A model generated the notes under the pieces. That model worked only from the letters and a program-made list of their open reading frames with translations, had not been told where the DNA came from and ran no database searches. A program made the position numbers and the translations under genes. Positions 1 through 10,842 of a DNA stretch of 14,337 bases are shown in pieces (positions within the stretch are counted from its first letter, which is position 1; each line of letters begins with the position of its first letter). The DNA comes from a virus. Where the stretch lies: the UHGV virus genome UHGV-0078064. One strand, given 5' to 3'.

Positions 1-68
1 TACGCAGTGTGCGCCGGGTCGCTGTTACCGAGCGGCTGGTTATGTGTGAAAACTTCAGTAATTGCCAT
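1..68 (-). CDS. D: Head decoration protein gpD, N-terminal 22 codons only (gene runs off the window start)
   Basis: Reverse complement of 1-68 translates [22 protein letters not shown], matching the lambda gpD N-terminus ([22 protein letters not shown]) as I recall it. AAGAGG Shine-Dalgarno lies 6 nt upstream and overlaps the C stop. Confidence 0.75.
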   Translation of the reverse strand, partial: [22 protein letters not shown]

Positions 69-77
69 GATAGCCTC

Positions 78-683
78 TTAAACGGGGGTGTTTAACAAAT
101 CGTCAGCGGCATCAGAAGATGCGCTACCTGCTGGGAGTGCACCGGGTGCTGTTTCCATCAAACGATCCAGCGCCGTATCGGTACGCGCCTGGGCACTTTG
201 CGGTGCAGCAGCCAGAATGCGCTGTGCGCTCTCTACCGTCATACCCGGCGTTTCGGCCAGTGCTCGTGCCTGTGACTCACGCCCTTTAGCCTCATCGCAG
301 TTCAGGATGCCCATGATGCGGCTATTCTCTGCAGCTACTGCTGCAGTAACCTGCGCACTGACATCTACAGGGGCCGCTACGGAAGCAATGGTCGTGTCAA
401 CGGTAGTGACCTGTTCAGCTGAGGCAGTTGTCTGAGTTGCTGCCTGGTCAACTGGCTTAGTGGTCACAGCTGAAGCAGAAGGTGATGGCATAGTTCCTCC
501 AAGGGTTGTTTTTTTGCGTCTGTCGAGTGCTTCGCGCATCACGCCGAGCGCATCGGTATTGTTAACAAGTTCATCCGCCAGTCCGTTATCCAAAGACTCC
601 TGGCCGGAGAATACTGCCGCTTCGGTGTCCAGCACGTCCTGAACAGACATGCCGGTATAAGCGGAAACCTTTTCGGCAAACAT
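78..683 (-). CDS. nu3: Scaffolding protein Nu3, nested in-frame within the 3' third of C
   Basis: Internal ATG at 681-683 (MFAEKVSAYTGM...) gives a 606-nt in-frame ORF sharing the C stop. Lambda Nu3 is 606 nt and starts at the equivalent MFAQKV position (established knowledge). No strong SD is visible. Confidence 0.6.
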   Translation of the reverse strand: MFAEKVSAYTGMSVQDVLDTEAAVFSGQESLDNGLADELVNNTDALGVMREALDRRKKTTLGGTMPSPSASAVTTKPVDQAATQTTASAEQVTTVDTTIASVAAPVDVSAQVTAAVAAENSRIMGILNCDEAKGRESQARALAETPGMTVESAQRILAAAPQSAQARTDTALDRLMETAPGALPAGSASSDAADDLLNTPV

Positions 684-1421
684 CTGACGAGTGGCATCGA
701 TACGCGTCTGGAAATCAGCACGCACATCTTTCGGAAGCTTTTCGTAAGGGTTGCCGTCGACCTTGCGATCGCCGCTGTAAATCAGCGTGACCTCAACGCC
801 GTTAGTTTTGAGCGCAGCGCCATAGTTGCTGTGCGCCATCATGACCCCAATGGAGCCGGTTCTGGCCGTTTGTGTGACCAGCCGTCGCGATGCCGAACTG
901 GCTATAAGCTGCCCTGCACTGCAGTTCATGTCATTGGCCAGCGCCCAGATGGGTTTGATATCGCGCATACGGGCTATAATGTCGGCGCAGTCAAACGCCC
1001 CGGACACCATTCCACCCGGCGTATCCATATCCAGAAGAATGCCGTCAACGCCGGGGTCACTGATTGCCTGCTGCAGGCGAGCAATGATCCCGTTGTAACC
1101 CGTCATGCCGGAATAAGGCTGAAGCGCACGGGTTTTACTGACCAGCGTGCCGGAAACCGGCAAGACCGCGATACCATTTGCCACCTGATAGCTGCGTGAT
1201 GGACGGGGATCCATGTCATCATCCTCACCAAACAGCGCCAGCGGTTCGGCTATTTGTCCGGCATCAAGCGTGATGCCAGAGACGGTATCTGTCAGCCGGG
1301 TGATGCCCAACTGGCCAGCCAGCGCGCAAAAGAAAACCCGCGCATAGGCGGGTTCAAGCATCAGCGGCTCATTAAAGGCCATACTGGCAATATGCGGAAG
1401 ATTACGCAGCTCGTGCGCCAT
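78..1421 (-). CDS. C: Head maturation protease / minor capsid protein C (S49-family peptidase)
   Basis: 447-aa ORF, near-identical along its length to lambda gpC as recalled ([40 protein letters not shown]...DLLNTPV). Overlaps B by 20 nt exactly as in lambda. Confidence 0.93.
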   Translation of the reverse strand: MAHELRNLPHIASMAFNEPLMLEPAYARVFFCALAGQLGITRLTDTVSGITLDAGQIAEPLALFGEDDDMDPRPSRSYQVANGIAVLPVSGTLVSKTRALQPYSGMTGYNGIIARLQQAISDPGVDGILLDMDTPGGMVSGAFDCADIIARMRDIKPIWALANDMNCSAGQLIASSASRRLVTQTARTGSIGVMMAHSNYGAALKTNGVEVTLIYSGDRKVDGNPYEKLPKDVRADFQTRIDATRQMFAEKVSAYTGMSVQDVLDTEAAVFSGQESLDNGLADELVNNTDALGVMREALDRRKKTTLGGTMPSPSASAVTTKPVDQAATQTTASAEQVTTVDTTIASVAAPVDVSAQVTAAVAAENSRIMGILNCDEAKGRESQARALAETPGMTVESAQRILAAAPQSAQARTDTALDRLMETAPGALPAGSASSDAADDLLNTPV

Positions 1422-2994
1422 CTTGCTCCTCCTCGTTTGATTTTTTCACTCCGGCCTCAAAAGCTGCAGCGGCCCATGCCGGTGGTTTCAGACCCGCAGC
1501 ACGACGCTCTATGGTTTCCCGGACCTGCTGGGCAAAAATCTCCTGATAATCATCACCGCGTTTGGCGCACTCTTTTTCATACGTGCTGAGACCTGCCTCA
1601 ATGAGCATGACGGCCTCCTGTACCTCTTTCAGCCCGTCAATTGCCATTCGACCAGAGCCAATCCAGTTGGCATTCCCCCAGGCTGTTCTCGCCTCCTGGA
1701 AACTGAACCGGGCTTTCGAAGGAAGCGTGACCACGCGGCGGACAATCGCCTCTTCAAGCCAGCAAAGAAACATCTGACAGGCCTGTCGGGATGCCACAAA
1801 CTTGCGACGCCCCATAAAGTACGCCCAGGACTCGTTAGCACTTGCGCGTGCGGTCGAGTAGCTCATCTGCGAATAGTTTCGCGAAAGCTGCTCATACGAC
1901 ACACCAAGCCCAGCGGCAATATAACGCAGCAGGGACTGTTCAAAAGTCGAGTAGCCGTTATCGGTATCCTGCGCCGACTGAAGGTTGAGAGAATCACCCG
2001 GCAACAGGTGTGGAACCCTTGCCCCACCCAGGCGAACAGGCGCAGCTGAGTAATAGGACGCCATTTCACCGAGCCAGCCCGTAAGTTTGCTCTGCTGCTC
2101 TTTATTATCCGCGCCGAGAATAAAGTCCATCGCCGATTGGGTATCCAGTTCACTCTCGATGGTAGCGGCATACATAGCCTTCACTATCGCGCTCTGGAGC
2201 TGGGTATTTTGCAGGGTATCGAGCATTTTCATCTGCTCCATCACGCTGTAAAACGCATTGGCCCCACGGGTCTGTCCATCCTCCATCGGTTCGAATACAT
2301 GGATAAATGAAGGTCGACCGCCGGGTAGTTCGCGAGGAATGTAGGTCCAGTTCTGCGCCATCCAGCCGGGATAACCATCGTCGCTGACGTAATATCCCAG
2401 CGCAGCACCGCTATCATTTATTTTCACACCGGCGCGACAGTTCCGGGTATCACCGATATTATTCGGATTGCTGACGCGCTTCGGACTGACCATTTTGAAC
2501 TGAGTACGGAAAAGACGCGTTGAATCGCTGTCCCAGGTCGCCTGCGTGCATAATTCACCGTTAAACGCGTGCATGGCCACACCTTCTCGGATCATCATCG
2601 TAAACGTTCGCTTACGCTCGGCATCAATCCCGCAAAAGTCGTCCTCGGCATACTCATTCCATGCAGCTTCCACATCCCGCGAGAATGCCCGTGAATCCTC
2701 CTCATTTATTCCCAGATAACGCCAGCTTGGTCGATAACTGAGTCTGAAAAATGACCCGACGATGTGGTCCTGGTGGAGCTGCACGGCGTTTGCCGCGTAG
2801 CCATTATTTCGCACCAGATCGTCAGCGCGGGCATTTCCGCGAGAATAGTTGGGTAGGAGTGCGGCATCTGCACTTTCACTCGGCGGATTCCAGCCTCGCA
2901 GCTGCCCACCAAACCCGCCTCCACCGCCATGATATCCTGCGTATTCCCGAAGGGATGTTTTCCCGTCAGGTCCCACCAAAGATGGTATTTTCAT
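1402..2994 (-). CDS. B: Portal protein B
   Basis: 530-aa ORF near-identical to lambda gpB as recalled ([25 protein letters not shown]...). Start overlaps the W stop by 4 nt. Confidence 0.93.
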
Positions 2995-3197
2995 ACGTAA
3001 AACCCTGCTGGCCCCCGGCGTCGTGATGTGGTGCCAACCTGAGATTCAAGGTCAGCAATATATTTTTTGAGATCGCTGACTGAAGTGGCTGTAAATTCCA
3101 CTCTTCGACCGTCTTTCTGTACCGTCGCCACGCGCTTTCCCATCATCAGGTCATGTAACGCAGCGCGCGCGGCATCCAGTTCAGTCTGTGTTGCCAT
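2991..3197 (-). CDS. W: Head-tail joining / head completion protein W
   Basis: 68 aa ([51 protein letters not shown]...[10 protein letters not shown]), matching lambda gpW as recalled. Sits between A and B as in lambda. Confidence 0.9.
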
Positions 3198-5119
3198 TAT
3201 TCATCTCCAGATAATGCCCGCGCGTAATCCGCCAGGGTCTTGTTATTGTTACGGCTGCCTTCTTCCTCCAGCAGGCTGGCCAGAAGTGAATCAAGATTTA
3301 GCTGCCAGCGGGATATGCTTATACGCAGCGCCGCCAGTGCATAAACAAAGCAATCGAGCGCCTCATTTCGTCGTTTTTTGCTGTCCCAGACGATCTTTTT
3401 CTTTCCGTCTACCCATTTTTCCACCTGCTCTTCAGCTGTTAGTTGTTGGGCCTCTGTTAGATCGTAGATTTCTGGGTTATTCGGGAAATGAACCGCTCCC
3501 GCCAGCGGCTCGTCTCTTTGCGCCACCAGCGTGAAACGGTTATAAATCTGCTCTTTTGCGGTGTCTGTTCCTACCTCTGTGAGGTAAACACCATTCTTGT
3601 TACGCTTGCGTGGCATGTTCGCCACTGGCTTTCCATAAACCGACGCCCCCTTTATAGGGATCACACGAAACAGACCGTGTTTTTTTGAGCGGTTGTAGAC
3701 GATGGTGGGATCAATGCCGCCAATATCCCAGCAAGTGCGGGATATAACCATTTCGAGACCGTTCTGGCGCTTATACGTCCTGTTGATCGCTTCATCAACT
3801 CGAGCGAGAGTCGACTCATCATCATGACGACCCATAATGATAATTTTGTCGATAAGCCAGCTTTCCTCTCCCGGCCCCCATCCCCAAACACGCATTTCGT
3901 AACGGTCAAGCTGGGAGTCAATACCCGCTGTCAGATATGCCACTCGCTCCGGCACAGACGCTTCAAAGTGCTCTTTTCGTTCCGCTAAAACTTCAGCATC
4001 GGGTCGTTCACCTATTTTCGGTTCCCACGTTTCGCCCAGGGTCGTGTTAACGAAAGTTTTTCGCTTACCCGTATCACCTTTTGTTTTTATCCAGTCCTTG
4101 ACGATCTGCACCCAGGTTGTGAACGGGCTATATGCGGTCCAGATGTGGAATGTAACGCTGTCAGGAGGTTCAATTTCGGTACCGGATGAAGAAAACCAGT
4201 TAAGGCCGTCTCGTGTCCAGATACCTGTTTCATCACAAATATACCTGGCCTCCAGAAATTCCAGCTCCTGTTGTTTAATCACACAGGCATTGTGTTCACA
4301 GAGGTAGTAAACGCTGGCAGGTTCTCCCGGAGACCATTTGAAGCCAAATGGTGTCTCTTTATCACCGAATTTCAGATACTGCTCTTCCCCACAGTGTGGG
4401 CATGGAACATGGAACCGAAGAAAATGTTCAGACTCCTTAGCAGCTCTTTCTATCTGGCACGTACCTTTGACTTTCGGTGTAGATCCGCGAATGGATTTCG
4501 GCCATACAGAACCCTCAATACGCTTATCACCCAGAAAGGTGGGAGAACCTTCTTTCTCGATGTCATCATCGAAAGCGGCGAGCTCGTCGTAGCCAGCCAC
4601 ATCAACTGATTTTTCACGGTAGTTTTTTGCAGCCTTACCGCCCAGGCACCAGAAACCACGACCATTCGAGAAACGCTTCATGCTCAGCGTATTGTCCCGG
4701 TGTTTTTTACCGTACCAGGGAGCAAGCGCCAGCAACGTCGGAATATCACGAATGGTCGGTTCTACATGAGACTTCATGAAGTTTTCAGCATCACCGTCGG
4801 TTGGTAACCATATTAGGGAGTTACGCTGTTTATGTTGGATGAAATATGCGTAAACGCCGAGCAACATTTTTGAGTAGCCGACACGAGCCGATTTAACGAC
4901 ATTCACCTCGCGAATATAGTCATTACCCATCGCATTCATAATTGCACGCTGAAATGGCAGTGTTTCCCAGCGCCCTTCCTGGTAGGCAGACTCTTTCGGG
5001 AGATAATAATTCTCATCTGCCCATTCAACTGCTGTTTGCGGTTGCGGCCGGTACAGCGAACGTAACCCCGCCCGCGCAGAGTGCTGCAGCCCCTTAACCT
5101 GACTGTTCGATATATTCAC
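3197..5119 (-). CDS. A: Terminase large subunit A
   Basis: 640-aa ORF near-identical to lambda gpA as recalled (lambda is 641 aa). Its start lies 26 nt inside the 3' end of Nu1, as in lambda. Confidence 0.95.
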
Positions 5120-5639
5120 TCAGCAACCCCGGTATCATTTCATCCAGCGCAGCTGCCTTGTTCATGGCCTTAATGATGTCCTTCTTGAGGAAATCAATAT
5201 GTCGGTTCTCCAGCTCCGGGAAGCGCCGCTGAACCGACAGAGGTATTCCATCGAGAATGCTGGCGATTTCTCCGGCTACCCGCGACAGCACGAACGTGCA
5301 GAATGCGGTCTCCACCACTTCAGCGGACTCTTTTGCATTTTTTAATTCCTGAGCGTCAGCCTGAGCTCGCGTAAGTCGGTGTCGCTCATATTCAATCGTG
5401 CCAGGTTGAAGATCGGACTCAGAAGCGATACGGAGATCTTCAACTTCCTTCCGCAACTTTTCATTTTCTATAGCTGCATCGCGCGCACTGTACCATTCGA
5501 TTGCAGCAGCAGATTCAAAGAGAACCTCATTACCTTTGCCACCACCGCGGACAACCGGCATACCTTGCTCCTGCCAGTTCTGAATCGTTCGGACGCTTAC
5601 CCCGAAAATTTCGGATAAGCGTTTTTTGTTAACCTCCAT
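5094..5639 (-). CDS. nu1: Terminase small subunit Nu1
   Basis: 181 aa, MEVNKK...IQNWQEQGMPV...GGGKGNEV... through ...[10 protein letters not shown], near-identical to lambda gpNu1 as recalled. Immediately downstream of the cosB R sites. Confidence 0.95.
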   Translation of the reverse strand: MEVNKKRLSEIFGVSVRTIQNWQEQGMPVVRGGGKGNEVLFESAAAIEWYSARDAAIENEKLRKEVEDLRIASESDLQPGTIEYERHRLTRAQADAQELKNAKESAEVVETAFCTFVLSRVAGEIASILDGIPLSVQRRFPELENRHIDFLKKDIIKAMNKAAALDEMIPGLLSEYIEQSG

Positions 5640-5835
5640 GGCTTACTCCTGGCAAAAAACAGAGAAAGGAAACAATCAACGGTAAACTTCCGTTTTCCTT
5701 GCTCAGCATTTCCTTTCTGGAGAGAGGACGTTTTTAACAAAAACAATGAGTAAACAAGAAGAAGAACGGAAATGGCATAAACCAGAAAATTTTCATAAAT
5801 AGCGAGAATCTGCGCGGACGCCGCCCCGTAACAAG
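5640..5835. other. cos: cos site: cosB (R1, I1, R2, R3 terminase-binding repeats) and cosN nicking region
   Basis: Reverse complement reads ...GTTACG GGGCGGCGTCCG CGCAGATTCTCGCTATTTATGAAAATTTTCTGGTTTATGCCATTTCCGTTCTTC...GTTTCCTTTCTC...ATG(Nu1), matching the lambda cos layout. R-like elements: gagaaaggaaac (about 5662-5673), tttcctttct in opposite orientation (about 5709-5718), gaagaacggaaatgg (about 5761-5775). Predicted 12-nt cohesive end is GGGCGGCGTCCG (+ strand about 5815-5826); lambda has GGGCGGCGACCT. Confidence 0.85.
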
Positions 5836-5884
5836 GCGGATCGCCGGAAAGGACCCGCAAACGATAATAATTATCAATTGCACA

Positions 5885-6349
5885 CTATCGACGGCACTGC
5901 TGCCAGATAACACCACCGGGGAAACATTCCATCATGATGGCCGTGCGGACATAGGAAGCCAGTTCATCCATCGCTTTCTTGTCTGCTGCCATTTGCTTTG
6001 TGACATCCAGCGCCGCACATTCAGCAGCGTTTTTCAGCGCGTTTTCGATCAACGTTTCAATGTTGGTATCAACACCAGGTTTAACTTTGAACTTATCGGC
6101 ACTGACGGTTACCTTGTTCTGCGCTGGCTCATCACGCTGGATACCAAGGCTGATGTTGTAGATATTGGTCACCGGCTGAGGTGTTTCGATTGCCGCTGCG
6201 TGGATAGCACCATTTGCGATAGCGGCGTCCTTGATGAATGACACTCCATTGCGAATAAGTTCGAAGGAGACGGTGTCACGAATGCGCTGGTCCAGCTCGT
6301 CGATTGCCTTTTGTGCAGCAGAGGTATCAATCTCAACGCCAAGCGTCAT
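5885..6349 (-). CDS. Hypothetical protein, cos-proximal late-strand accessory gene
   Basis: 154-aa ORF (MTLGVEIDTSAAQKAIDELDQRIRDTVSFELIRNG...) with ATG start, 12 nt downstream of the preceding gene's stop, ending 55-60 nt before cosN. No family recognised from memory. Occupies the position of lambda's post-bor ORFs but does not resemble them by size or order. Confidence 0.6.
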   Translation of the reverse strand: MTLGVEIDTSAAQKAIDELDQRIRDTVSFELIRNGVSFIKDAAIANGAIHAAAIETPQPVTNIYNISLGIQRDEPAQNKVTVSADKFKVKPGVDTNIETLIENALKNAAECAALDVTKQMAADKKAMDELASYVRTAIMMECFPGGVIWQQCRR

Positions 6350-6361
6350 CGAAGCGCAATA

Positions 6362-6613
6362 TTACTGCTCACCAAAACGCGTATTGACCAGGTGTTCAAC
6401 GGCAAATTTCTGCCCTTCTGATGTCAGAAAGGTAAAGTGATTTTCTTTCTGGTATTCAGTTGCTGTGTGTCTGGTTTCAGCAAAACCAAGCTCGCGCAAT
6501 TCGGCTGTGCCAGATTTAGAAGGCAGATCACCAGACAGCAACGCGCCACGGAAAAACAGCGCATAAAGCACTTCATTAGCAGCGCCAGATAGCGTAATGA
6601 TTTTGTTACTCAT
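6362..6613 (-). CDS. Hypothetical small protein, cos-proximal late-strand accessory gene
   Basis: 83 aa from the ATG at 6611-6613 (MSNKIITLSGAANEVLYALFFRGALLSGDL...), with AAGGAAA SD about 6 nt upstream. The ORF track's 96-aa version starts at a TTG at 6652 with no SD. No family recognised. Confidence 0.6.
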   Translation of the reverse strand: MSNKIITLSGAANEVLYALFFRGALLSGDLPSKSGTAELRELGFAETRHTATEYQKENHFTFLTSEGQKFAVEHLVNTRFGEQ

Positions 6614-6632
6614 GGAATATTTCCTTTTAGGC

Positions 6633-6686
6633 GTGAGCCTGTCGCACGGCAAAGCCGCCGAAAGTTAACGGTTTGCCCAGGCTCAC
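6633..6686. repeat. Perfect 9-bp inverted repeat GTGAGCCTG / CAGGCTCAC with a 36-bp spacer that contains a nested GGCAAA/TTTGCC pair
   Basis: Read directly: arms at 6633-6641 and 6678-6686, nested complementary hexamers at 6648-6653 and 6672-6677, GTTAAC palindrome in the centre. Lies 20-73 nt upstream of the 83-aa gene start. Confidence 0.7.
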
Positions 6687-6724
6687 AGCTGAAAGACTTT
6701 CTACGATGTGCGCGTGCGATGCGC

Positions 6725-6749
6725 ATAAAAAAGCCGCGTGATGGCGGCT
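6725..6749 (-). terminator. Candidate rho-independent terminator (minus strand)
   Basis: Minus-strand RNA: AGCCGC-CAUCAC-GCGGCU (6-bp GC-rich stem, 6-nt loop) followed by UUUUUAU. The + strand tail is weaker (ACUGUUUG). Confidence 0.55.
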
Positions 6750-6878
6750 ACTGTTTGAATATCAGGGTGTTGTTTCGTCTTAACCCTGGTTAATGTAGGC
6801 ATTCAGCCCGTCGGTGGTGGGACACTGGCGCACTTAATAAAGAGTACTGGCTGATTACCTCAGAATAAGGAATCAAAA

Positions 6879-7139
6879 ATGTCAGAAGGTTTTGGTTTAA
6901 AAGAAAAGGTTGAGCAGTTAGAAAAAGAATTAGCCGTACAAAAAATAGCAAATCAGCTTGCTTTTGGAGCACTAATTAAAGCAGTTAATGAGCTGTACCC
7001 GAACAAAGATTTATATGATGGGTTGACAAAATTTGTCCAGGAAAAACTTGATCCTGAACGTGTTAAAAACATCCCTAATCTTCACGAGGCCTTTCTAGAA
7101 GCTGCGAAAATACTGAGGACTGACGCATCTCCTGAATAA
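6879..7139 (+). CDS. Hypothetical protein encoded on the opposite strand, AT-rich (moron-like)
   Basis: 86-aa ORF (MSEGFGLKEKVEQLEKELAVQKIANQLAFGALIKAVNELYPNKDLYDGL...), with AAGGA SD 7 nt upstream of the ATG. Conspicuously AT-rich relative to flanking phage genes. It is the only convincing + strand gene in the window and sits where lambda has bor (also opposite strand), but the product is not Bor-like and has no lipoprotein signal. Confidence 0.6.
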   Translation: MSEGFGLKEKVEQLEKELAVQKIANQLAFGALIKAVNELYPNKDLYDGLTKFVQEKLDPERVKNIPNLHEAFLEAAKILRTDASPE

Positions 7140-7233
7140 TTTTATCAACAAAGGCAGTTGTGTCCTCTTGCTTTTCATTCACAATGCATGTGACTGCCTT
7201 TTCTAAAGCTGTAATTCGTTCTTCAAGTGTCAT
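7075..7233 (-). CDS. Possible small ORF (52 aa) convergent with and overlapping the 3' end of the + strand gene
   Basis: ATG at 7231-7233 (MTLEERITALEKAVTCIVNEKQEDTTAFVDKIIQEMRQSSVFSQLLERPRED) preceded by AGGAG with 5-nt spacing. Overlaps the + gene by 65 bp. The ORF track extends it to a TTG at 7257. Coding status uncertain. Confidence 0.3.
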   Translation of the reverse strand: MTLEERITALEKAVTCIVNEKQEDTTAFVDKIIQEMRQSSVFSQLLERPRED

Positions 7234-7292
7234 ACCCACTCCTGTCATTGGCTTCAAAATGATAAACCCCGCATTTGCAAGTCCTATTTATA

Positions 7293-7331
7293 CCCCGCAG
7301 GGGATAAAAACCATATTATCCGCTTGCGGGG
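7293..7331. repeat. Imperfect palindrome CCCCGCAGGGGATAA-(8 nt)-TTATCCGCTTGCGGGG
   Basis: Read directly: GGATAA/TTATCC (6 bp) and CCCCGC/GCGGGG (6 bp) arms separated by a small internal loop. No clean U-tract on either strand. On the minus strand it abuts a TATAAAT element. Confidence 0.6.
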
Positions 7332-7373
7332 ATATCCATTATCAAGCCCACCAGCAGGTGAGCTTTGGAATGG

Positions 7374-7631
7374 TTACTTCGCTTTTGCTTCCGCTCGCTT
7401 ACGCCGGCGCTCTTCTTTCCTCTCGGCTTTTGCCATGTCCATGAATGCCTGCATGATCGAGTTCCGCATCATGTAGCTGACAAAGTGATGGTTGACACAG
7501 CCGTTGAGGCGCAGCTGCTCGCCAAACTCATCCACCGAGGCCAATGCTTCCATCATGCCCTTCTCGCCTTTCATGAACTCTGAGAAGTCGCGCCCCGCTC
7601 TGGAGGCGCATTCTATTATTCGGGTGCTCAT
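7374..7631 (-). CDS. Hypothetical small protein with a lysine/arginine-rich C-terminal tail, coupled to the upstream KilA-N gene
   Basis: 85 aa from the ATG at 7629-7631 (MSTRIIECASRAGRDFSEFMKGEKGMMEALASVDEFGEQL...AKAERKEERRRKRAEAKAK). Its start is 2 nt after the KilA-N gene stop (TGAtcATG). The ORF track's 105-aa version overlaps the upstream gene. Confidence 0.55.
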   Translation of the reverse strand: MSTRIIECASRAGRDFSEFMKGEKGMMEALASVDEFGEQLRLNGCVNHHFVSYMMRNSIMQAFMDMAKAERKEERRRKRAEAKAK

Positions 7632-7633
7632 GA

Positions 7634-8362
7634 TCAGGCCGCCGCATAGAGCAATTTCATCTGCCCTTTCACCGGGAATGCCGACATGCAACGCGCTTCG
7701 AAATCACGATAATCAGAGCACCCATTGGCAATGCTGGTAACGGCAATGATCTGTCGCTCAACCAATGTCAGCGCGTCAGGTTTAAGGTGCTGATGGATTT
7801 TGTCTCCCGCAGCCAGCCGTCTTTTAACCTCTGCATATACTTCTGGTGGTAATACCGGGCCATATACCCACTTGGCACTGATCATCCCAAATAGTGCGGG
7901 GCGACGACCTGGTCGATGACGGGGCAGCCCTGACATTTTGAACATCGCAGAATAAAACGGATCGCTAAACCTCTTTTCCCATGGCTGAGATTTATCCAGA
8001 AGGAAAATAGCCTTTATTCTTTCATCGTCGATATGATGAACGGAACCCTGAATGATTGCGTCAATTTGCTCATCACACCAGATCTCAAAATCTACAGAAA
8101 GCCATCGAGCAAATCTGACCGCCAGTTTTGGGTGAAGCCATGTTCCGCCGCCACGGTCTTTGCGAGCGCGGCTGGTTTTTACATATGTGATATTCCCATA
8201 TCTACTCTTTAACGCCTCGATGTAACGGACAGTCTCAGGAAGCCTAAGCCACTGAGCCGGCTCCTTGTTGAACTTGTCAGCTGCCGCAGTCGCGTCAAAC
8301 CAGCCATCGTCAGAAAAACGCATGGGATGGCCTTCGAAATCAATCGGGATGATATTGGACAT
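7634..8362 (-). CDS. KilA-N domain protein (N-terminal KilA-N/APSES-type DNA-binding domain; C-terminal half unassigned)
   Basis: 243 aa from the ATG at 8360-8362 (MSNIIPIDFEGHPMRFSDDGWFDATAAADKFNKEPAQWLRLPETVRYIEAL...GGGTWLHPKLAVRFARWLSVDFEIW), a pattern typical of KilA-N domains. AAGG SD about 9 nt upstream. The ORF track's 267-aa version begins at a GTG with no SD. Confidence 0.7.
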   Translation of the reverse strand: MSNIIPIDFEGHPMRFSDDGWFDATAAADKFNKEPAQWLRLPETVRYIEALKSRYGNITYVKTSRARKDRGGGTWLHPKLAVRFARWLSVDFEIWCDEQIDAIIQGSVHHIDDERIKAIFLLDKSQPWEKRFSDPFYSAMFKMSGLPRHRPGRRPALFGMISAKWVYGPVLPPEVYAEVKRRLAAGDKIHQHLKPDALTLVERQIIAVTSIANGCSDYRDFEARCMSAFPVKGQMKLLYAAA

Positions 8363-8512
8363 CGTATTTACCTTTTTGGTGATATGAGCCAGTTCTCGCA
8401 GACATGGACAGCCCAAGAGCGGCACGATGTAAGCCACCGTCCTGTCTCTGTCTCATATCCCGAAAAGCTCTTGGTTGATATGCGCACGAGAATGCGCGTT
8501 TACTGCGGACAT

Positions 8513-8535
8513 AAAAAAGCCCCGCATCGCGAGGC
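8513..8535 (-). terminator. Candidate rho-independent terminator downstream of Rz
   Basis: Minus-strand RNA: GCCUCGC-GAU-GCGGGGC (7-bp stem with one G.U pair) followed by UUUUUU. Lies about 35 nt past the Rz stop. Confidence 0.6.
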
Positions 8536-8568
8536 TCATTAAATGGACTTTGTGATTTGCAAAAAAAA

Positions 8569-9006
8569 TTATTTCAGGCACTGAGTCCTGATGTACTCCT
8601 GCAGGTAGTTAACCTGCGCGGTTATCCTGTCGATTCCACTTCGGAGACGGTAATAATTGAGTTCAGCATCTGCTGTAAGTCTTGGGCTTTCTCCATCGCC
8701 CATGCCGCTGGCTCCGGTCGTTGACTTTGCACAGGTGGCGGCGACTTGCAGGCGCTTACGCCCAGCAGAAACATCAGCACGGAGACTTTCGATAGTCGCG
8801 TTAGCATCAGCAAGCTCCTTTGTATATCTGGCATCGAGTTCTGCTACATCACGTTGACGCTTCTGCATGTCAGCAATAGTGGATGCGGCTTTGTCGCGCT
8901 GTTCTTTGTAGGCGATTGCATTATCACGGTAATGATTAACAGCCCATGACAGGCAGACGATGATGCAGATAACCAGAGCGGAGATAATCGCGGTGACTCT
9001 GCTCAT
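8569..9006 (-). CDS. Rz: Spanin, inner-membrane subunit (i-spanin) Rz
   Basis: 145 aa; the N-terminus [31 protein letters not shown] matches lambda Rz as recalled. Start overlaps the R stop (ATGA). Confidence 0.92.
8622..8807 (-). CDS. Rz1: Spanin, outer-membrane lipoprotein subunit (o-spanin) Rz1, embedded in the +1 frame of Rz
   Basis: 61 aa from the ATG at 8805-8807: [20 protein letters not shown] (signal peptide with VSAC lipobox) followed by a proline-rich segment [13 protein letters not shown]. Entirely embedded in Rz, the lambda architecture. Confidence 0.8.
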
Positions 9007-9479
9007 ACCTCAATCTCTCTGACCGTTCCGCCTGCCTCTTTGAATTTTGCAATCAGGCTGTCAGCCTTATGCTCGAACTGACCATAACCAGCGCCCGGCA
9101 GTGAGGCCCAGATATTGCTGCAACGGTCGATTGCCTGACGAATATCACCGCGGTCAATCATCGGTAAAGCGCCACGCTCTTTAATCTGTTGCAATGCCAC
9201 AGCGTCCTGGCTTTTCGGAGAGAAGTCTTTCAGGCCAAGCTGCTTACGGTAGGCATCCCACCAACGGGAAAGAAGCTGGTAACGTCCGGCGGCTGTTGAT
9301 TTGAGTTTGGGGTTTAGCGTGACAAGTTTGCGAGGGTGATCGGAGTAATCAGTGAATAGCTCTCCGCCTACAATGACGTCATAACCATGATTTCTGGTTT
9401 TCTGACGTCCGTTATCAGTTCCCTCTGACCATGCCAGCATATCGAGGAACGCCTTACGTTGATTATTGATTCCCACCAT
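9003..9479 (-). CDS. R: Endolysin R (lytic transglycosylase)
   Basis: 158 aa, essentially identical to lambda R as recalled ([53 protein letters not shown]...). Overlaps S by 17 nt as in lambda. Confidence 0.95.
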
Positions 9480-9786
9480 CTTCTACTCCGGCTTTTTTAG
9501 CAGCGAAGCGTTTGATAAGCGAACCAATCGAGTCAGTACCGATGTAGCCGATGAACACGCTCGTTATATAAGCGAGATTGCTACTTAGTCCGGCGAAGCC
9601 GAGAAGGTCACGAATGAACCAGGCGATAATGGCGCACATCGTTGCGTCGATTACTGTTTTTGTAAACGCACCGCCATTATATCTGCCGCGAAGGTACGCC
9701 ATTGCAAACGCAAGGATTGCCCCGATGCCTTGTTCCTTTGCCGCGAGAATGGCGGCTAACAGGTCATGTTTTTCTGGCATCTTCAT
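9463..9786 (-). CDS. S: Holin S (class I, with the Met1-Lys2-Met3 dual-start holin/antiholin motif)
   Basis: 107 aa, [62 protein letters not shown]..., near-identical to lambda S107/S105 as recalled. Confidence 0.95.
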
Positions 9787-10218: not shown

Positions 10219-10842
10219 CTAACGTGTGACTGCGTTCAAAATGTTGCCTGCGATTGACTCTTCCTTGTGGCATTGCACCACCAGAGCGTCATACAGCGGC
10301 TTAACAGTGCGTGACCAGGTGGGTTGGGTAAGGTTTGGGATTAGCATCGTCACAGCGCGATATGCTGCGCTTGCAGGCATCCTTGAATAACCGACGCCTT
10401 TACATCTTCCGCACTCTTTCTCAACAACTCTCCCCCACTGCTCTGTTTTTGCTATATCAACTGCCCGACCTGTTCCGTGGCAATCTCTGCATCTTGCGCC
10501 CGGCGTCGCAGCACTACGGCAATAATCCGCATAAGCGAATGTTGCGAGCACTTGCAGTACCTTTGCCTTAGTATTTCCTTCGAGCTTTGCCACACCACGG
10601 TATTTCCCCGATACCTTGTGTGCAAATTGCATCAGATAGTTGATAGCCTTTTGTTTGTCGTTCTGGCTGAGTTCATGCTTACCGCAGAATGCAGCCATTC
10701 CGAATCCGGCTTGTGATTGCGCCATCCCCATAGCAGCCATAACATCAGTACCGGAAAGAGAGTCAGAAGCCGTAGCCCGTGGTGAGTCGCTCATCATCGG
10801 GCTTTTTGGCGAATGAAATTTAGCTACGCTTTCGAGTCTCAT
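10219..10842 (-). CDS. Q: Late-gene antiterminator Q
   Basis: 207 aa, essentially identical to lambda Q as recalled (MRLESVAKFHSPKSPMMSDSPRATASDSL...CRDCHGTGRAVD...ECGRCKGVGY...). Start overlaps the ninH stop. Confidence 0.95.
   Translation of the reverse strand: MRLESVAKFHSPKSPMMSDSPRATASDSLSGTDVMAAMGMAQSQAGFGMAAFCGKHELSQNDKQKAINYLMQFAHKVSGKYRGVAKLEGNTKAKVLQVLATFAYADYCRSAATPGARCRDCHGTGRAVDIAKTEQWGRVVEKECGRCKGVGYSRMPASAAYRAVTMLIPNLTQPTWSRTVKPLYDALVVQCHKEESIAGNILNAVTR

What the first reader, a model, noticed from the sequence alone, without database searches (positions are those of the whole stretch)
5885..8560. The Rz-to-cos accessory slot carries a wholly different cargo from lambda
The lysis cassette upstream and the cos/Nu1/A genes downstream are near-identical to lambda as recalled, but the 2.6 kb between them is not. 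Lambda has bor (opposite strand) plus two small ORFs here. This window instead has a KilA-N domain gene translationally coupled to a small basic-tailed gene, an AT-rich gene on the opposite strand, a possible convergent small ORF, and two cos-proximal genes of 83 and 154 aa. None of these do I recognise. Flanking conservation with internal replacement is the signature of a moron or accessory hotspot, where lysogenic-conversion, exclusion or anti-defence genes are typically found. Two intrinsic terminators (8513-8535 and 6725-6749) subdivide the island.
Basis: partly seen in the sequence, partly recalled or inferred. Interest (0 to 1): 0.65.

Follow-up and report, generated by a model that had tools for sequence, protein, structure and literature searches.

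The report
Ordinary mosaic accessory slot before cos
The stretch between the lysis genes and the packaging site of this lambda-like phage is a patchwork of three accessory gene cassettes already seen in phages HK97, mEp213 and phi80, so the cargo is ordinary, although two cassettes start with a conserved folded RNA leader that appears to be undescribed.

Summary
Nothing between the middle of Rz (window 8758) and the cosQ segment (5876) matches lambda as DNA or protein.

The cargo is not new. It consists of three cassettes already sequenced elsewhere:
- A KilA-N+P63C gene with an 85-aa partner, 98% identical to the HK97/HK022/mEpX1 region.
- An AT-rich antisense 86-aa moron with a convergent 52-aa ORF. 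Its coding sequence is identical to mEp213.
- The phi80 ORF x171.28 / N15 gp59-like gene, 97-99.8% identical to phi80 and many prophages.

A single CAA->TAA change at codon 84, in an inter-domain linker, cuts it in two.

The flanks are less lambda-like than claimed: 93% for the lysis genes and 78% for the terminase and head genes. No protein matches a known defence or anti-defence family. Related phages carry Tad2-like, Rha, HNH, protease or glycosyltransferase genes in the same slot, so it is a genuine and well-known accessory hotspot.

One unexpected result: both same-strand cassettes are preceded by a terminator followed by a conserved, covarying hairpin of about 85-105 nt that ends at the ribosome-binding site. 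This leader class heads very diverse cargo genes in at least 120 viral contigs and 236 E. coli genomes. It has no Rfam match.

The parts
8508..8537 (-). Intrinsic terminator after Rz/Rz1.
   Evidence: Scan hit with 9-bp stem 8517-8537 plus a U-run. Folds at -14.7 kcal/mol, z -3.0. phi80 annotates a terminator at the equivalent place.
8368..8472 (-). Diverged copy of the structured 'cargo leader' hairpin. It ends at the ribosome-binding site of the KilA-N gene.
   Evidence: Covariance model R1 gives a full-length match, 20.3 bits, E about 0.004. The independent MFE fold is a long hairpin, z -3.7. The same position is hit in HK97 (L002) and, at 35 bits, before the Klebsiella KilA-N cassettes.
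7634..8362 (-). KilA-N + P63C protein, 242 aa (HK97 gp73 / HK97p60 homologue).
   Evidence: Pfam PF04383 79.9 bits and PF10546 42.6 bits. PHROG 1136, E 1e-122. 98% DNA identity to HK97, HK022, mEpX1 and others.
7374..7631 (-). 85-aa partner protein with a basic C-terminal tail. It starts 2 nt after the KilA-N stop.
   Evidence: PHROG 875, E 1e-53. 137 homologue clusters, all unnamed. It lies directly downstream of a KilA-N+P63C gene even in Klebsiella phages, where the pair sits in the tail operon.
7262..7375 (.). Highly structured non-coding junction between the HK97-type and mEp213-type cassettes.
   Evidence: MFE -48.1 kcal/mol, z -4.9, with 0 of 200 shuffles as stable. It is conserved in loci that lack the KilA-N cassette, and the small hairpins carry compensatory changes.
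7075..7233 (-). 52-aa ORF convergent with the moron and overlapping its 3' end by 65 nt. Coding status uncertain.
   Evidence: PHROG 28630. The ORF, GGAG and ATG are kept in all 8 compared loci, including an in-frame 15-nt deletion. There is no third-position bias: 3/2/4 and 10/4/11.
6879..7139 (+). AT-rich 86-aa gene antisense to the late operon. A true mobile moron.
   Evidence: 38-39% GC. Codon-position differences are 8/4/23 and 20/8/37, with synonymous changes in excess in this frame only. Eight homologue clusters. It occurs antisense in Rz-cos slots of unrelated lysis/terminase backgrounds and once inside a tail operon.
6726..6749 (-). Second intrinsic terminator, for rightward transcription.
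   Evidence: Scan hit with stem 6732-6749 plus a U-run. -10.3 kcal/mol, z -2.6.
6614..6725 (-). Conserved structured 'cargo leader': a small GCGC hairpin followed by a hairpin of about 85 nt whose base includes the ribosome-binding site of the next gene.
   Evidence: R1 scores 106.9 bits. It is 95-97% identical in HK639, mEp390, Fostie and FSL SP-016, upstream of different genes. Found in at least 120 IMG/VR contigs. Covariation shown. No Rfam match.
6362..6613 (-). N-terminal 83 codons (winged-helix domain) of the phi80 x171.28 / N15 gp59-like gene, ending in a premature TAA at 6364-6362.
   Evidence: CAA in phi80, YPE10 and MS115-1 against TAA here and in ECONIH4. PHROG 17079 positions 2-83. 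AlphaFold pLDDT is about 95 for residues 10-78. Foldseek matches MarR-family winged helices at probability 1.0.
5885..6349 (-). C-terminal 154 codons of the same gene, in frame and 12 nt after the TAA. Carries a tail-tip-like motif and a long helix.
   Evidence: PHROG 17079 positions 89-242, E 6e-105. PF09327 scores 23.1 bits against a cut-off of 22. Shares its C-terminal module with other leader-headed cargo proteins: BLASTP E 3e-6, and siblings score 26.7-36.5 bits on PF09327.
5862..5876 (.). Fur-box-like 7-1-7 palindrome (TGATAATTATTATCG) next to cosQ. Right edge of the variable region.
   Evidence: One mismatch to TGATAATNATTATCA, with 0 matches expected by chance. The palindrome is perfect in the right ends of lambda and phi80 at the same place.
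5815..5876 (-). cosQ-containing conserved segment (5827-5876) and the 12-base cohesive end GGGCGGCGTCCG (5826-5815).
   Evidence: 84% identical to the last 51 bases of lambda. The phi80 record ends and begins here. The end differs from lambda at bases 9 and 12, the positions at which N15 is reported to differ (PMC4669245).

Best explanation
The interval is an ordinary example of the known variable accessory slot between the lysis cassette and cos in lambdoid phages. Here it is filled by recombination with three cassettes that already exist in sequenced phages.

Cassette A: terminator, leader hairpin, KilA-N+P63C gene, 85-aa partner. It is a mobile two-gene unit on the late strand. The first protein is a Bro-N/KilA-N-class DNA-binding protein. 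The pair's function is unknown.

Cassette B: an AT-rich 86-aa gene transcribed against the late operon. It is a classical moron that moves between phages as a unit with a convergent 52-aa ORF.

Cassette C: terminator, leader hairpin, then a 242-aa protein. That protein has a variable N-terminal winged-helix head on a conserved C-terminal stalk, which carries a weak gpJ tail-tip-like motif, a long helix and a PGGxIW end. In this genome a nonsense mutation in the linker separates head from stalk. The gene is therefore probably a recent pseudogene, or at best yields a free 83-aa winged-helix protein.

Inferred, not shown: cassettes A and C are passengers of the Q-antiterminated late transcript, which reads through the two terminators. 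Their leader hairpins, whose base includes the ribosome-binding site, set how much is translated. The antisense moron is the only part likely to be expressed from the repressed prophage.
For: Replacement relative to lambda is shown.

Module identities:
- 98% to HK97, HK022 and mEpX1 for 8900-7337.
- 93% overall, and 100% in coding sequence, to mEp213/mEp043 for 7372-6370.
- 97% to phi80 and 99.3-99.8% to E. coli prophages for 6738-5827.

Every junction between neighbouring modules is seen elsewhere. A+B occurs in E. coli O68:H12 97.3 and B+C in L015.

Evidence for one gene split by an ochre codon:
- Alignment.
- HMM coverage 2-83 plus 89-242.
- Allele counts of 13 C to 1 T.
- A family norm of 242 aa.
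- The stop falls in the low-confidence linker, residues 83-86, of the model.

Cassette mobility: the KilA-N pair also sits in Klebsiella tail operons, and the moron occurs in five different backgrounds and in a tail operon.

Slot variability is shown. The leaders are supported.
Against: - No record in the phage or complete-E. coli collections covers 80% or more of the island, so this exact combination is new.
- No function is established for any of the proteins, so 'ordinary' refers to kind, not to understood biology.
- No sigma-70 promoter was found for the moron or for either cassette, so the expression model is inference.
- The stop allele recurs in ECONIH4 and one IMG/VR contig. It sits at a domain boundary where stand-alone N- and C-domain proteins also exist, so a functional split gene cannot be excluded.
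Confidence: 0.85

Rival explanations
1. The island is a lysogenic-conversion, exclusion or anti-defence island with novel effectors. On this view the KilA-N pair acts like the KilA-N-containing abortive-infection protein BstA, or the small proteins inhibit host defences.
For: - The same slot holds a Tad2-like (PF11195) gene in close relatives L015 and L016.
- KilA-N-like domains occur in BstA, and KilA-N proteins have been linked to defence islands (bioRxiv 10.1101/2020.07.13.199331).
- There is a weak PADLOC hit of the KilA-N protein to candidate PDC-S22: 19.6 bits over 30 residues.
- The moron is antisense and AT-rich, as prophage-expressed genes often are.
Against: - PADLOC reported only the weak PDC-S22 hit and the other five proteins had none. 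I believe but did not verify that the library holds a BstA model, so no match to one was seen.
- NCBIfam found no family, apart from one chance-level hit far below its cut-off, CcdA at 16.3 bits against 100. PDB sequence searches returned only chance-level matches (E 0.4-0.9) or none.
- The KilA-N pair and the 242-aa gene lie on the late strand behind terminators with no promoter signal.
- The KilA-N pair also sits inside tail operons, which fits late expression better than prophage expression.
Confidence: 0.2
2. The 83-aa and 154-aa ORFs are two genuine genes, a natural split of a two-domain protein, and not a pseudogene.
For: - The stop lies exactly in the inter-domain linker.
- An ATG follows 12 nt later.
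- The same allele occurs in E. coli ECONIH4, where both halves are annotated, and in one IMG/VR contig.
- Stand-alone N-domain proteins of 75-106 aa and C-domain-only proteins exist.
- mEp213 recombines a different C-terminus at this very point.
Against: - Only one base differs from intact copies that are otherwise 99.3-99.8% identical, so the change is recent.
- 13 of 14 IMG/VR copies and 242 aa as the norm in the family of 656 clusters (120 listed) argue that the intact form is the functional one.
- No Shine-Dalgarno sequence precedes the second ATG (read directly).
Confidence: 0.2
3. The 242-aa gene is an iron-regulated ('Fur-regulated') gene, as NCBI names the family.
For: - The family name appears in NCBI records.
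- A near-perfect Fur-box-like palindrome lies 9 nt after the gene's stop codon.
Against: - The palindrome lies downstream of the gene, not in its upstream region. That region is occupied by a terminator and the structured leader.
- The same palindrome sits next to cosQ in lambda, which lacks this gene, so it belongs to cos rather than to the gene.
- No NCBIfam model backs the name.
- I found no paper supporting it.
Confidence: 0.1

Closest known systems
HK97 gp73 region (HK97p60 KilA-N protein plus HK97p61), also present in HK022, mEpX1, mEpX2, mEp234, mEp235, mEp506 and HK446
   Same: Same position directly after Rz. Same terminator, same 729-bp KilA-N+P63C gene and same small downstream gene. 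97.5-98.5% DNA identity over window 8900-7337.
   Different: In HK97 the cassette is followed by the HNH endonuclease gp74 and an HK97-type cos. Here it is followed by the mEp213-type moron and a lambda/N15-type cos. The partner ORF is annotated as 77 aa in HK97 against 85 aa here.
mEp213 / mEp043 gp71-gp72-gp73 (Rz-to-cos region)
   Same: The convergent 52-aa and 86-aa gene pair is identical, as are the terminator, the leader and the first 81 codons of the winged-helix gene.
   Different: mEp213 lacks the KilA-N cassette. Its winged-helix gene continues into a different, shorter C-terminus (155 aa). Homology stops at window 6370, 6 nt upstream of the TAA here (6364-6362).
phi80 ORF x171.28 (gp49, 'similar to N15 gp59'); PHROG 17079; NCBI 'Fur-regulated protein'
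   Same: Last gene before cosQ, with the same leader. 97% DNA identity through to the cohesive end.
   Different: The gene is an intact 242 codons in phi80 and interrupted here. phi80 has Rha and other ORFs upstream instead of KilA-N and the moron. phi80's cohesive end is lambda-type (…GACCT), whereas here it is GGGCGGCGTCCG, differing at the two positions (bp 9 and 12) where N15 is reported to differ.
Lambda bor / lambdap78 / lambdap79 region
   Same: Same map position between Rz and cosQ. Same idea of non-essential genes, one of them on the opposite strand.
   Different: No sequence similarity at all. Lambda has no copy of the leader hairpin in the 44000-48502 or 1-6500 regions that were searched.
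Morons as defined for HK97/HK022 (Juhala et al. 2000, as summarised in PMC3594210)
   Same: The 86-aa gene is extra DNA with deviating base composition. It is present or absent between otherwise adjacent genes and sits in different genomic places in different phages.
   Different: Its own promoter and terminator could not be identified by consensus scans. Expression from a prophage was not tested.
Phage T7-type RNase III processing hairpins and SD-sequestering leaders (comparison from general knowledge, not tested)
   Same: The leaders are intercistronic within a long polycistronic transcript. They have a lower stem, an asymmetric 3' internal loop and an upper stem, and end just before a ribosome-binding site.
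   Different: No sequence relationship and no Rfam family. Cleavage by RNase III is a guess only.

Membership tests
   blastn leaves window 8757-5877 unmatched. tblastn of six island proteins against the lambda ends gives only hits at E>=0.8.
Moron (Juhala/Hendrix sense): 86-aa gene | Extra DNA between genes that are adjacent in related phages, occurring in varied contexts | tested here: met
   Present in Rz-cos slots of five different backgrounds and between tail genes L and M in L010. Absent from HK97 and phi80.
Moron (Juhala/Hendrix sense): 86-aa gene | Base composition different from the surroundings | tested here: met
   GC 0.38-0.39 at 6751-7200 against about 0.50 on both sides.
Moron (Juhala/Hendrix sense): 86-aa gene | Own promoter and terminator | tested here: inconclusive
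   No sigma-70-like site on the + strand upstream of 6879. The downstream hairpins (7262-7345) lack a clear U-run on the + strand.
Moron (Juhala/Hendrix sense): 86-aa gene | Expressed from the repressed prophage | not testable with these tools
   Needs RNA-seq or a reporter in a lysogen.
KilA-N domain proteins (PF04383) with P63C (PF10546) | HMM match above the Pfam gathering score for both domains | tested here: met
   79.9 bits against a cut-off of 23.8, and 42.6 bits against 26.1.
BstA abortive-infection family | Match to the BstA model, meaning a KilA-N-like N-domain plus the BstA C-domain | tested here: inconclusive
   PADLOC returns only a 19.6-bit local hit to candidate PDC-S22 and reports no BstA match. 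I believe but did not verify that the library includes a BstA model.
phi80 x171.28 / N15 gp59-like (PHROG 17079) | Full-length similarity to the 242-position family profile | tested here: met
   The two ORFs cover profile positions 2-83 (E 2e-51) and 89-242 (E 6e-105).
phi80 x171.28 / N15 gp59-like (PHROG 17079) | Uninterrupted reading frame of about 242 codons | tested here: not met
   TAA at codon 84, where relatives have CAA.
MarR/PadR-type winged-helix regulators (N-terminal 83 aa) | Winged-helix fold | tested here: met
   The model has pLDDT about 95 for residues 10-78, with topology H-H-beta hairpin-H. The top 30 Foldseek PDB hits are nearly all MarR-family, probability 1.0, E 4e-3.
MarR/PadR-type winged-helix regulators (N-terminal 83 aa) | Sequence-family membership and the dimerisation helices of MarR | tested here: not met
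   No Pfam or NCBIfam hit. 12-23% identity only. The domain is 83 aa, against about 140 aa for MarR proteins.
gpJ tail-tip fibre domain (PF09327): C-terminal 154 aa | HMM match above the gathering score | tested here: inconclusive
   23.1 bits against a cut-off of 22, over 33 residues only. Sibling cargo proteins score 26.7-36.5 bits. BLASTP against lambda gpJ is not significant.
Fur-regulated gene | Fur box in the promoter region of the gene | tested here: not met
   The only Fur-box-like site (5862-5876) lies after the stop codon, next to cosQ. It is also present in lambda, which lacks the gene.
Rho-independent terminators | GC-rich hairpin followed by a U-run, more stable than shuffled sequence | tested here: met
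   for both 8508-8537 and 6726-6749 on the - strand.
Any described RNA family (Rfam 15): leader hairpins | Covariance-model match | tested here: not met
   No match at E<=1 in window 5500-9000 on either strand.

The most novel reading that the evidence does not exclude
The terminator-proximal hairpins at 6614-6725 and 8368-8472 belong to an undescribed class of structured RNA leaders. These leaders head portable accessory-gene cassettes in the late regions of enterobacterial temperate phages, and they control translation or processing of whatever cargo follows. Possible mechanisms are SD sequestration or RNase III cleavage.

The leader would then be the conserved 'socket' of the accessory slot, and the genes behind it the exchangeable 'plugs'. 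Cargo seen behind it includes KilA-N, Rha, HNH, glycosyltransferase, and a family of proteins with variable heads on a common tail-tip-like stalk.
Probability: 0.4. Interest if true: 0.55.

Novelty: new member of a known kind. Interest (0 to 1): 0.3.

Why it matters
As a cargo island it matters little. It confirms textbook lambdoid mosaicism and adds no new gene family.

Two things could be useful:
- The conserved leader hairpin gives a sequence handle for finding late-operon accessory cassettes in prophages, whatever gene they carry. It also raises a testable question about how phages dose such passenger genes.
- The family with a variable N-terminal head on a conserved tail-tip-like stalk is common (656 clusters) and sits next to cos or inside tail operons. 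It may be virion-associated, and this can be tested in phi80.

The nonsense allele also shows why two adjacent small ORFs should not be counted as separate genes.

Tried and rejected
- Structure prediction of the 242-aa protein with a shallow alignment (24 sequences at 74-98% identity) failed, with pLDDT 39.5. It worked only after adding 50%-cluster representatives.
- The afdb50 fold library was unavailable.
- NCBIfam found no family for any island protein apart from one chance-level hit far below cut-off. PADLOC found none apart from a weak PDC-S22 hit. PDB sequence searches, including a profile search, returned only chance-level matches (E 0.4-0.9) or none.
- Pfam scans of ten multi-domain relatives of the winged-helix family added nothing beyond the weak PF09327 signal.
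- The 19-mer Fur-box consensus with up to 3 mismatches found nothing. Only the 7-1-7 form matches.
- Literature searches found no functional data on these genes. Terms tried were P63C/KilA-N, phi80 with Fur-regulated, Fur titration assay, N15 gp59, and the leader sequence string.
- BLASTP of the C-terminal half and of a sibling protein against lambda gpJ was not significant, so I do not call the protein a tail protein.
- I considered that the 52-aa ORF and the 86-aa gene form a toxin-antitoxin-like convergent pair. Nothing supports this beyond the conserved overlap, and the 52-aa ORF shows no codon-position signal.
- I looked for sigma-70 promoters inside the leaders and found none (and reading of the alignment).

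Full report
ORIENTATION AND OBSERVATION

The window is the reverse complement of the usual lambda map. Phage genes lie on the - strand:
- Q: 10219-10842
- S: 9463-9786
- R: 9003-9479
- Rz / Rz1: 8569-9006 / 8622-8834
- the island
- cos
- Nu1: 5094-5639
- A: 3197-5119
- W, B and C

I ran blastn against lambda 44000-48502 and 1-6500:
- S, R and the 5' half of Rz are 93.2% identical (window 9957-8758 = lambda 45015-46235).
- The last 51 bases of lambda are 84% identical (window 5876-5827).
- Nu1 through C is 77.6% identical.
- Nothing in 8757-5877 matches lambda DNA, and tblastn of the six island proteins gives only noise.

The replacement is therefore real. However, it begins inside Rz, and the flanks are not 'near-identical' to lambda. 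The true relatives of the left flank are HK97, HK022 and mEpX1 (about 96%). Those of the right flank are mEp237 (99.9%), Phi06_2987 (100%) and phi80 (91.7%).

THE ISLAND IS THREE KNOWN CASSETTES

Megablast against 50,697 phage records and 5,426 complete E. coli genomes finds no record that covers 80% of the island. It does find every part.

Module A (8900-7337) is 97.5-98.5% identical to HK97, HK022, mEpX1/X2, mEp234/235/506 and HK446. There it is annotated as a KilA-N(-P63C) protein plus a small hypothetical protein.

Module B (7372-6370) is 93% identical to mEp213 and mEp043, and identical in the coding parts.

Module C (6738-5827) is 97% identical to phi80 and 99.3-99.8% identical to many E. 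coli prophages.

The A+B junction exists in E. coli O68:H12 strain 97.3. The B+C junction exists in a metagenomic contig, L015, which carries a Tad2-like gene where this window has the KilA-N cassette. Only the three-way combination is new.

CASSETTE A

The first gene (7634-8362, 242 aa, starting at the ATG used in HK97) has KilA-N (79.9 bits) and P63C (42.6 bits) domains. The 85-aa gene starts 2 nt after its stop codon.

The small protein has 137 homologue clusters, none of them named. In the two divergent cases I looked up, from Klebsiella phages, it again follows a KilA-N+P63C gene directly. There the pair sits in the tail operon between a chaperone-like gene and the tape-measure gene. The pair is therefore a mobile two-gene unit.

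PADLOC gives only a weak local hit to a candidate system and reports no BstA match. The KilA-N domain is a DNA-binding fold of the Bro-N/KilA-N/Rha group. No bacterial or phage member has a defined role according to the BstA paper. I therefore cannot go beyond 'DNA-binding protein with a small partner, probably made late'.

CASSETTE B

The 86-aa gene (6879-7139, + strand) is 38-39% GC. It belongs to a tiny family of 8 clusters from E. coli and Enterobacter.

Its contexts are the best evidence that it is a moron. It lies antisense to the late genes in Rz-cos slots of prophages with different holins, endolysins and terminases. In one contig it sits between tail genes L and M.

Substitutions against two diverged copies fall 8/4/23 and 20/8/37 on codon positions 1/2/3, with synonymous changes in excess in this frame only. 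It is therefore a real gene under purifying selection.

The convergent 52-aa ORF (7075-7233) keeps its GGAG, ATG and open frame in all eight loci. In the most distant locus it has an in-frame 15-nt deletion. It shows no codon-position bias, and its changes are mostly non-synonymous, so I leave its status open. The 65-nt overlap of the two ORFs is almost invariant.

CASSETTE C AND THE NONSENSE MUTATION

ORFs 6362-6613 and 5885-6349 are in the same frame. Aligned with phi80, YPE10 and MS115-1, the only difference at the boundary is C->T, which turns CAA into TAA at 6364-6362.

The two pieces cover positions 2-83 and 89-242 of the 242-position PHROG 17079. The family has 656 clusters at 90% identity in E. 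coli, Citrobacter and Salmonella prophages. Its usual length is 242 aa, and NCBI names it 'Fur-regulated protein'. Among 14 IMG/VR copies of this exact stretch, 13 have C and 1 has T. E. coli ECONIH4 also has T.

With a deep alignment, AlphaFold gives a confident N-terminal domain (residues 10-78, pLDDT about 95) with winged-helix topology. A low-confidence linker follows at 83-86, exactly where the stop lies. The C-terminal part contains a long helix.

Foldseek places the N-domain with MarR-type winged helices (probability 1.0, E 4e-3). It also matches stand-alone phage proteins of 75-106 aa.

The C-terminal part scores just above threshold on the gpJ tail-tip domain PF09327 (23.1 against 22). 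It shares its module, FIKDAxIGxG … long helix … PGGxIW, with other proteins that have quite different N-termini (BLASTP E 3e-6). Several of those score 26.7-36.5 bits on PF09327. Direct BLASTP against lambda gpJ is not significant.

My reading is a variable head on a conserved stalk, cut here between head and stalk. This is most likely a recent inactivation. A functional split cannot be excluded.

THE 'FUR-REGULATED' NAME

The name is not supported for this gene. The only Fur-box-like site (5862-5876, one mismatch to the 7-1-7 consensus, none expected by chance) lies after the stop codon, beside cosQ. The same palindrome is perfect at the right ends of lambda and phi80. Lambda lacks the gene, so the site belongs to cos.

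The cohesive end here is GGGCGGCGTCCG. It differs from lambda's GGGCGGCGACCT at bases 9 and 12, the positions at which the N15 cohesive end is reported to differ from lambda's (PMC4669245).

THE SLOT AS A HOTSPOT

Related genomes put other genes in the same interval:
- bor and two ORFs in lambda
- Rha and others in phi80
- HNH in HK97
- an SDH Clp-fold protease in YPE10
- Tad2-like in L015 and L016
- glycosyltransferase in mEp390 and Fostie

It is what Juhala et al. and later reviews describe for lambdoid phages (PMC3594210).

THE UNEXPECTED PART: A CONSERVED LEADER

A stretch of about 118 nt upstream of the winged-helix gene (6616-6735) is 95-97% identical in phages that share nothing else nearby:
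- HK639, where it heads a gene inserted between the major tail protein and the chaperones
- mEp390, Fostie and FSL SP-016

236 of 5,426 complete E. coli genomes carry the element, and it is never annotated.

In 105 of 146 instances a T-run precedes it, usually with a hairpin, which indicates a terminator. It always ends in AAAAGG plus a start codon.

The gene behind it varies widely:
- the winged-helix family, 33 of 117
- a 472-aa glycosyltransferase
- FN3-like proteins
- an HNH endonuclease
- several small proteins

RNAalifold on 59 distinct cores predicts one long hairpin whose base pairs TCTTT with AAAGG of the ribosome-binding site. Pair 27-65 covaries (CG 23, GC 17, UG 12, UA 5). One-sided changes are G-U-compatible only on the sense strand.

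There is a caveat. My search pattern fixed the 5' arm, so invariance there says nothing about structure.

A covariance model built from these cores finds a diverged second copy in the window at 8368-8472, ending at the KilA-N start (20.3 bits, E about 0.004). It also finds copies before phi80 rha (63 bits), before the Klebsiella KilA-N cassettes (35 bits), and before HNH_3 and TerB-like genes.

Folded on their own, these diverged copies give the same architecture: a lower stem, an asymmetric 3' loop GUGNGA, an upper stem, then CUAAAAGG. On the model-fitted alignment 14 of 20 pairs show double changes. 96% of cells are paired, against 35-51% when the partners are slid. That alignment leans towards the model and includes some opposite-strand rows.

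Rfam has no match. I found no sigma-70 promoter in the element.

I think this is a real RNA structure that gates translation or processing of late-operon passenger genes. RNase III cleavage or SD sequestration are the obvious candidate mechanisms, and neither was tested.

VERDICT

The finding describes a real, correctly located replacement. Its content is a recombinant of published cassettes of unknown function, one of them broken. The phenomenon is textbook. Interest in the finding itself is low. The leader class is worth a separate look.

Noticed in passing
window 6614-6725 (-) and 8368-8472 (-): A conserved, covarying leader hairpin sits right after each terminator and ends at the ribosome-binding site of the next gene. 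The same class heads very diverse cargo genes in at least 120 IMG/VR contigs and 236 complete E. coli genomes. It has no Rfam match and is never annotated.
   Followed up: partly
window 6362-6364 (-): A single C->T change turns CAA into TAA. This ochre codon at position 84 splits the 242-aa phi80 x171.28-like gene exactly in its inter-domain linker. The allele is shared with E. coli ECONIH4 and 1 of 14 IMG/VR copies.
   Followed up: yes
window 5862-5876: A Fur-box-like 7-1-7 palindrome lies directly upstream of cosQ. It is perfect at the same place in lambda and phi80. I suspect, from memory and without verification, that it is the origin of the 'Fur-regulated' label. A role in packaging or iron-dependent control is untested.
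   Followed up: partly
window 5815-5826 (-): The cohesive-end sequence is GGGCGGCGTCCG. It differs from lambda at bases 9 and 12, the positions where N15 is reported to differ, although the neighbouring cosQ side is phi80-like.
   Followed up: partly
window 8758 (inside Rz, 8569-9006): Similarity to lambda stops in the middle of Rz. The 3' half of Rz and the embedded Rz1 are of the HK97 type, so there is a recombination joint inside the spanin genes.
   Followed up: no
window 7262-7375: An unusually stable set of hairpins (z -4.9) lies at the joint between the HK97-type and mEp213-type cassettes. It is also present in loci that lack the KilA-N cassette, and the small hairpins carry compensatory changes. 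It could be a bidirectional terminator or a recombination boundary.
   Followed up: partly
window 7075-7139 (overlap of the 86-aa and 52-aa ORFs): The 65-nt 3' overlap of the two convergent ORFs is almost invariant across copies that differ by 15-30% elsewhere. This suggests dual coding or an antisense interaction.
   Followed up: partly
loci L130, L135, L137-L139, L038 (IMG/VR, HK639) compared with window 5885-6349: Many leader-headed cargo proteins share a C-terminal module, FIKDAxIGxG … DAIRNALKPGGxIW, with the window's 154-aa fragment, but have unrelated N-terminal domains (winged helix, FN3-like and others). Some lie in tail operons or next to a glycosyltransferase. They may form a head-on-stalk family associated with the virion.
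   Followed up: partly
loci L015 6504-6974 and L016 1500-1970: Close relatives carry a Tad2-like (PF11195, anti-Thoeris family) gene exactly where this window has the KilA-N cassette.
   Followed up: no
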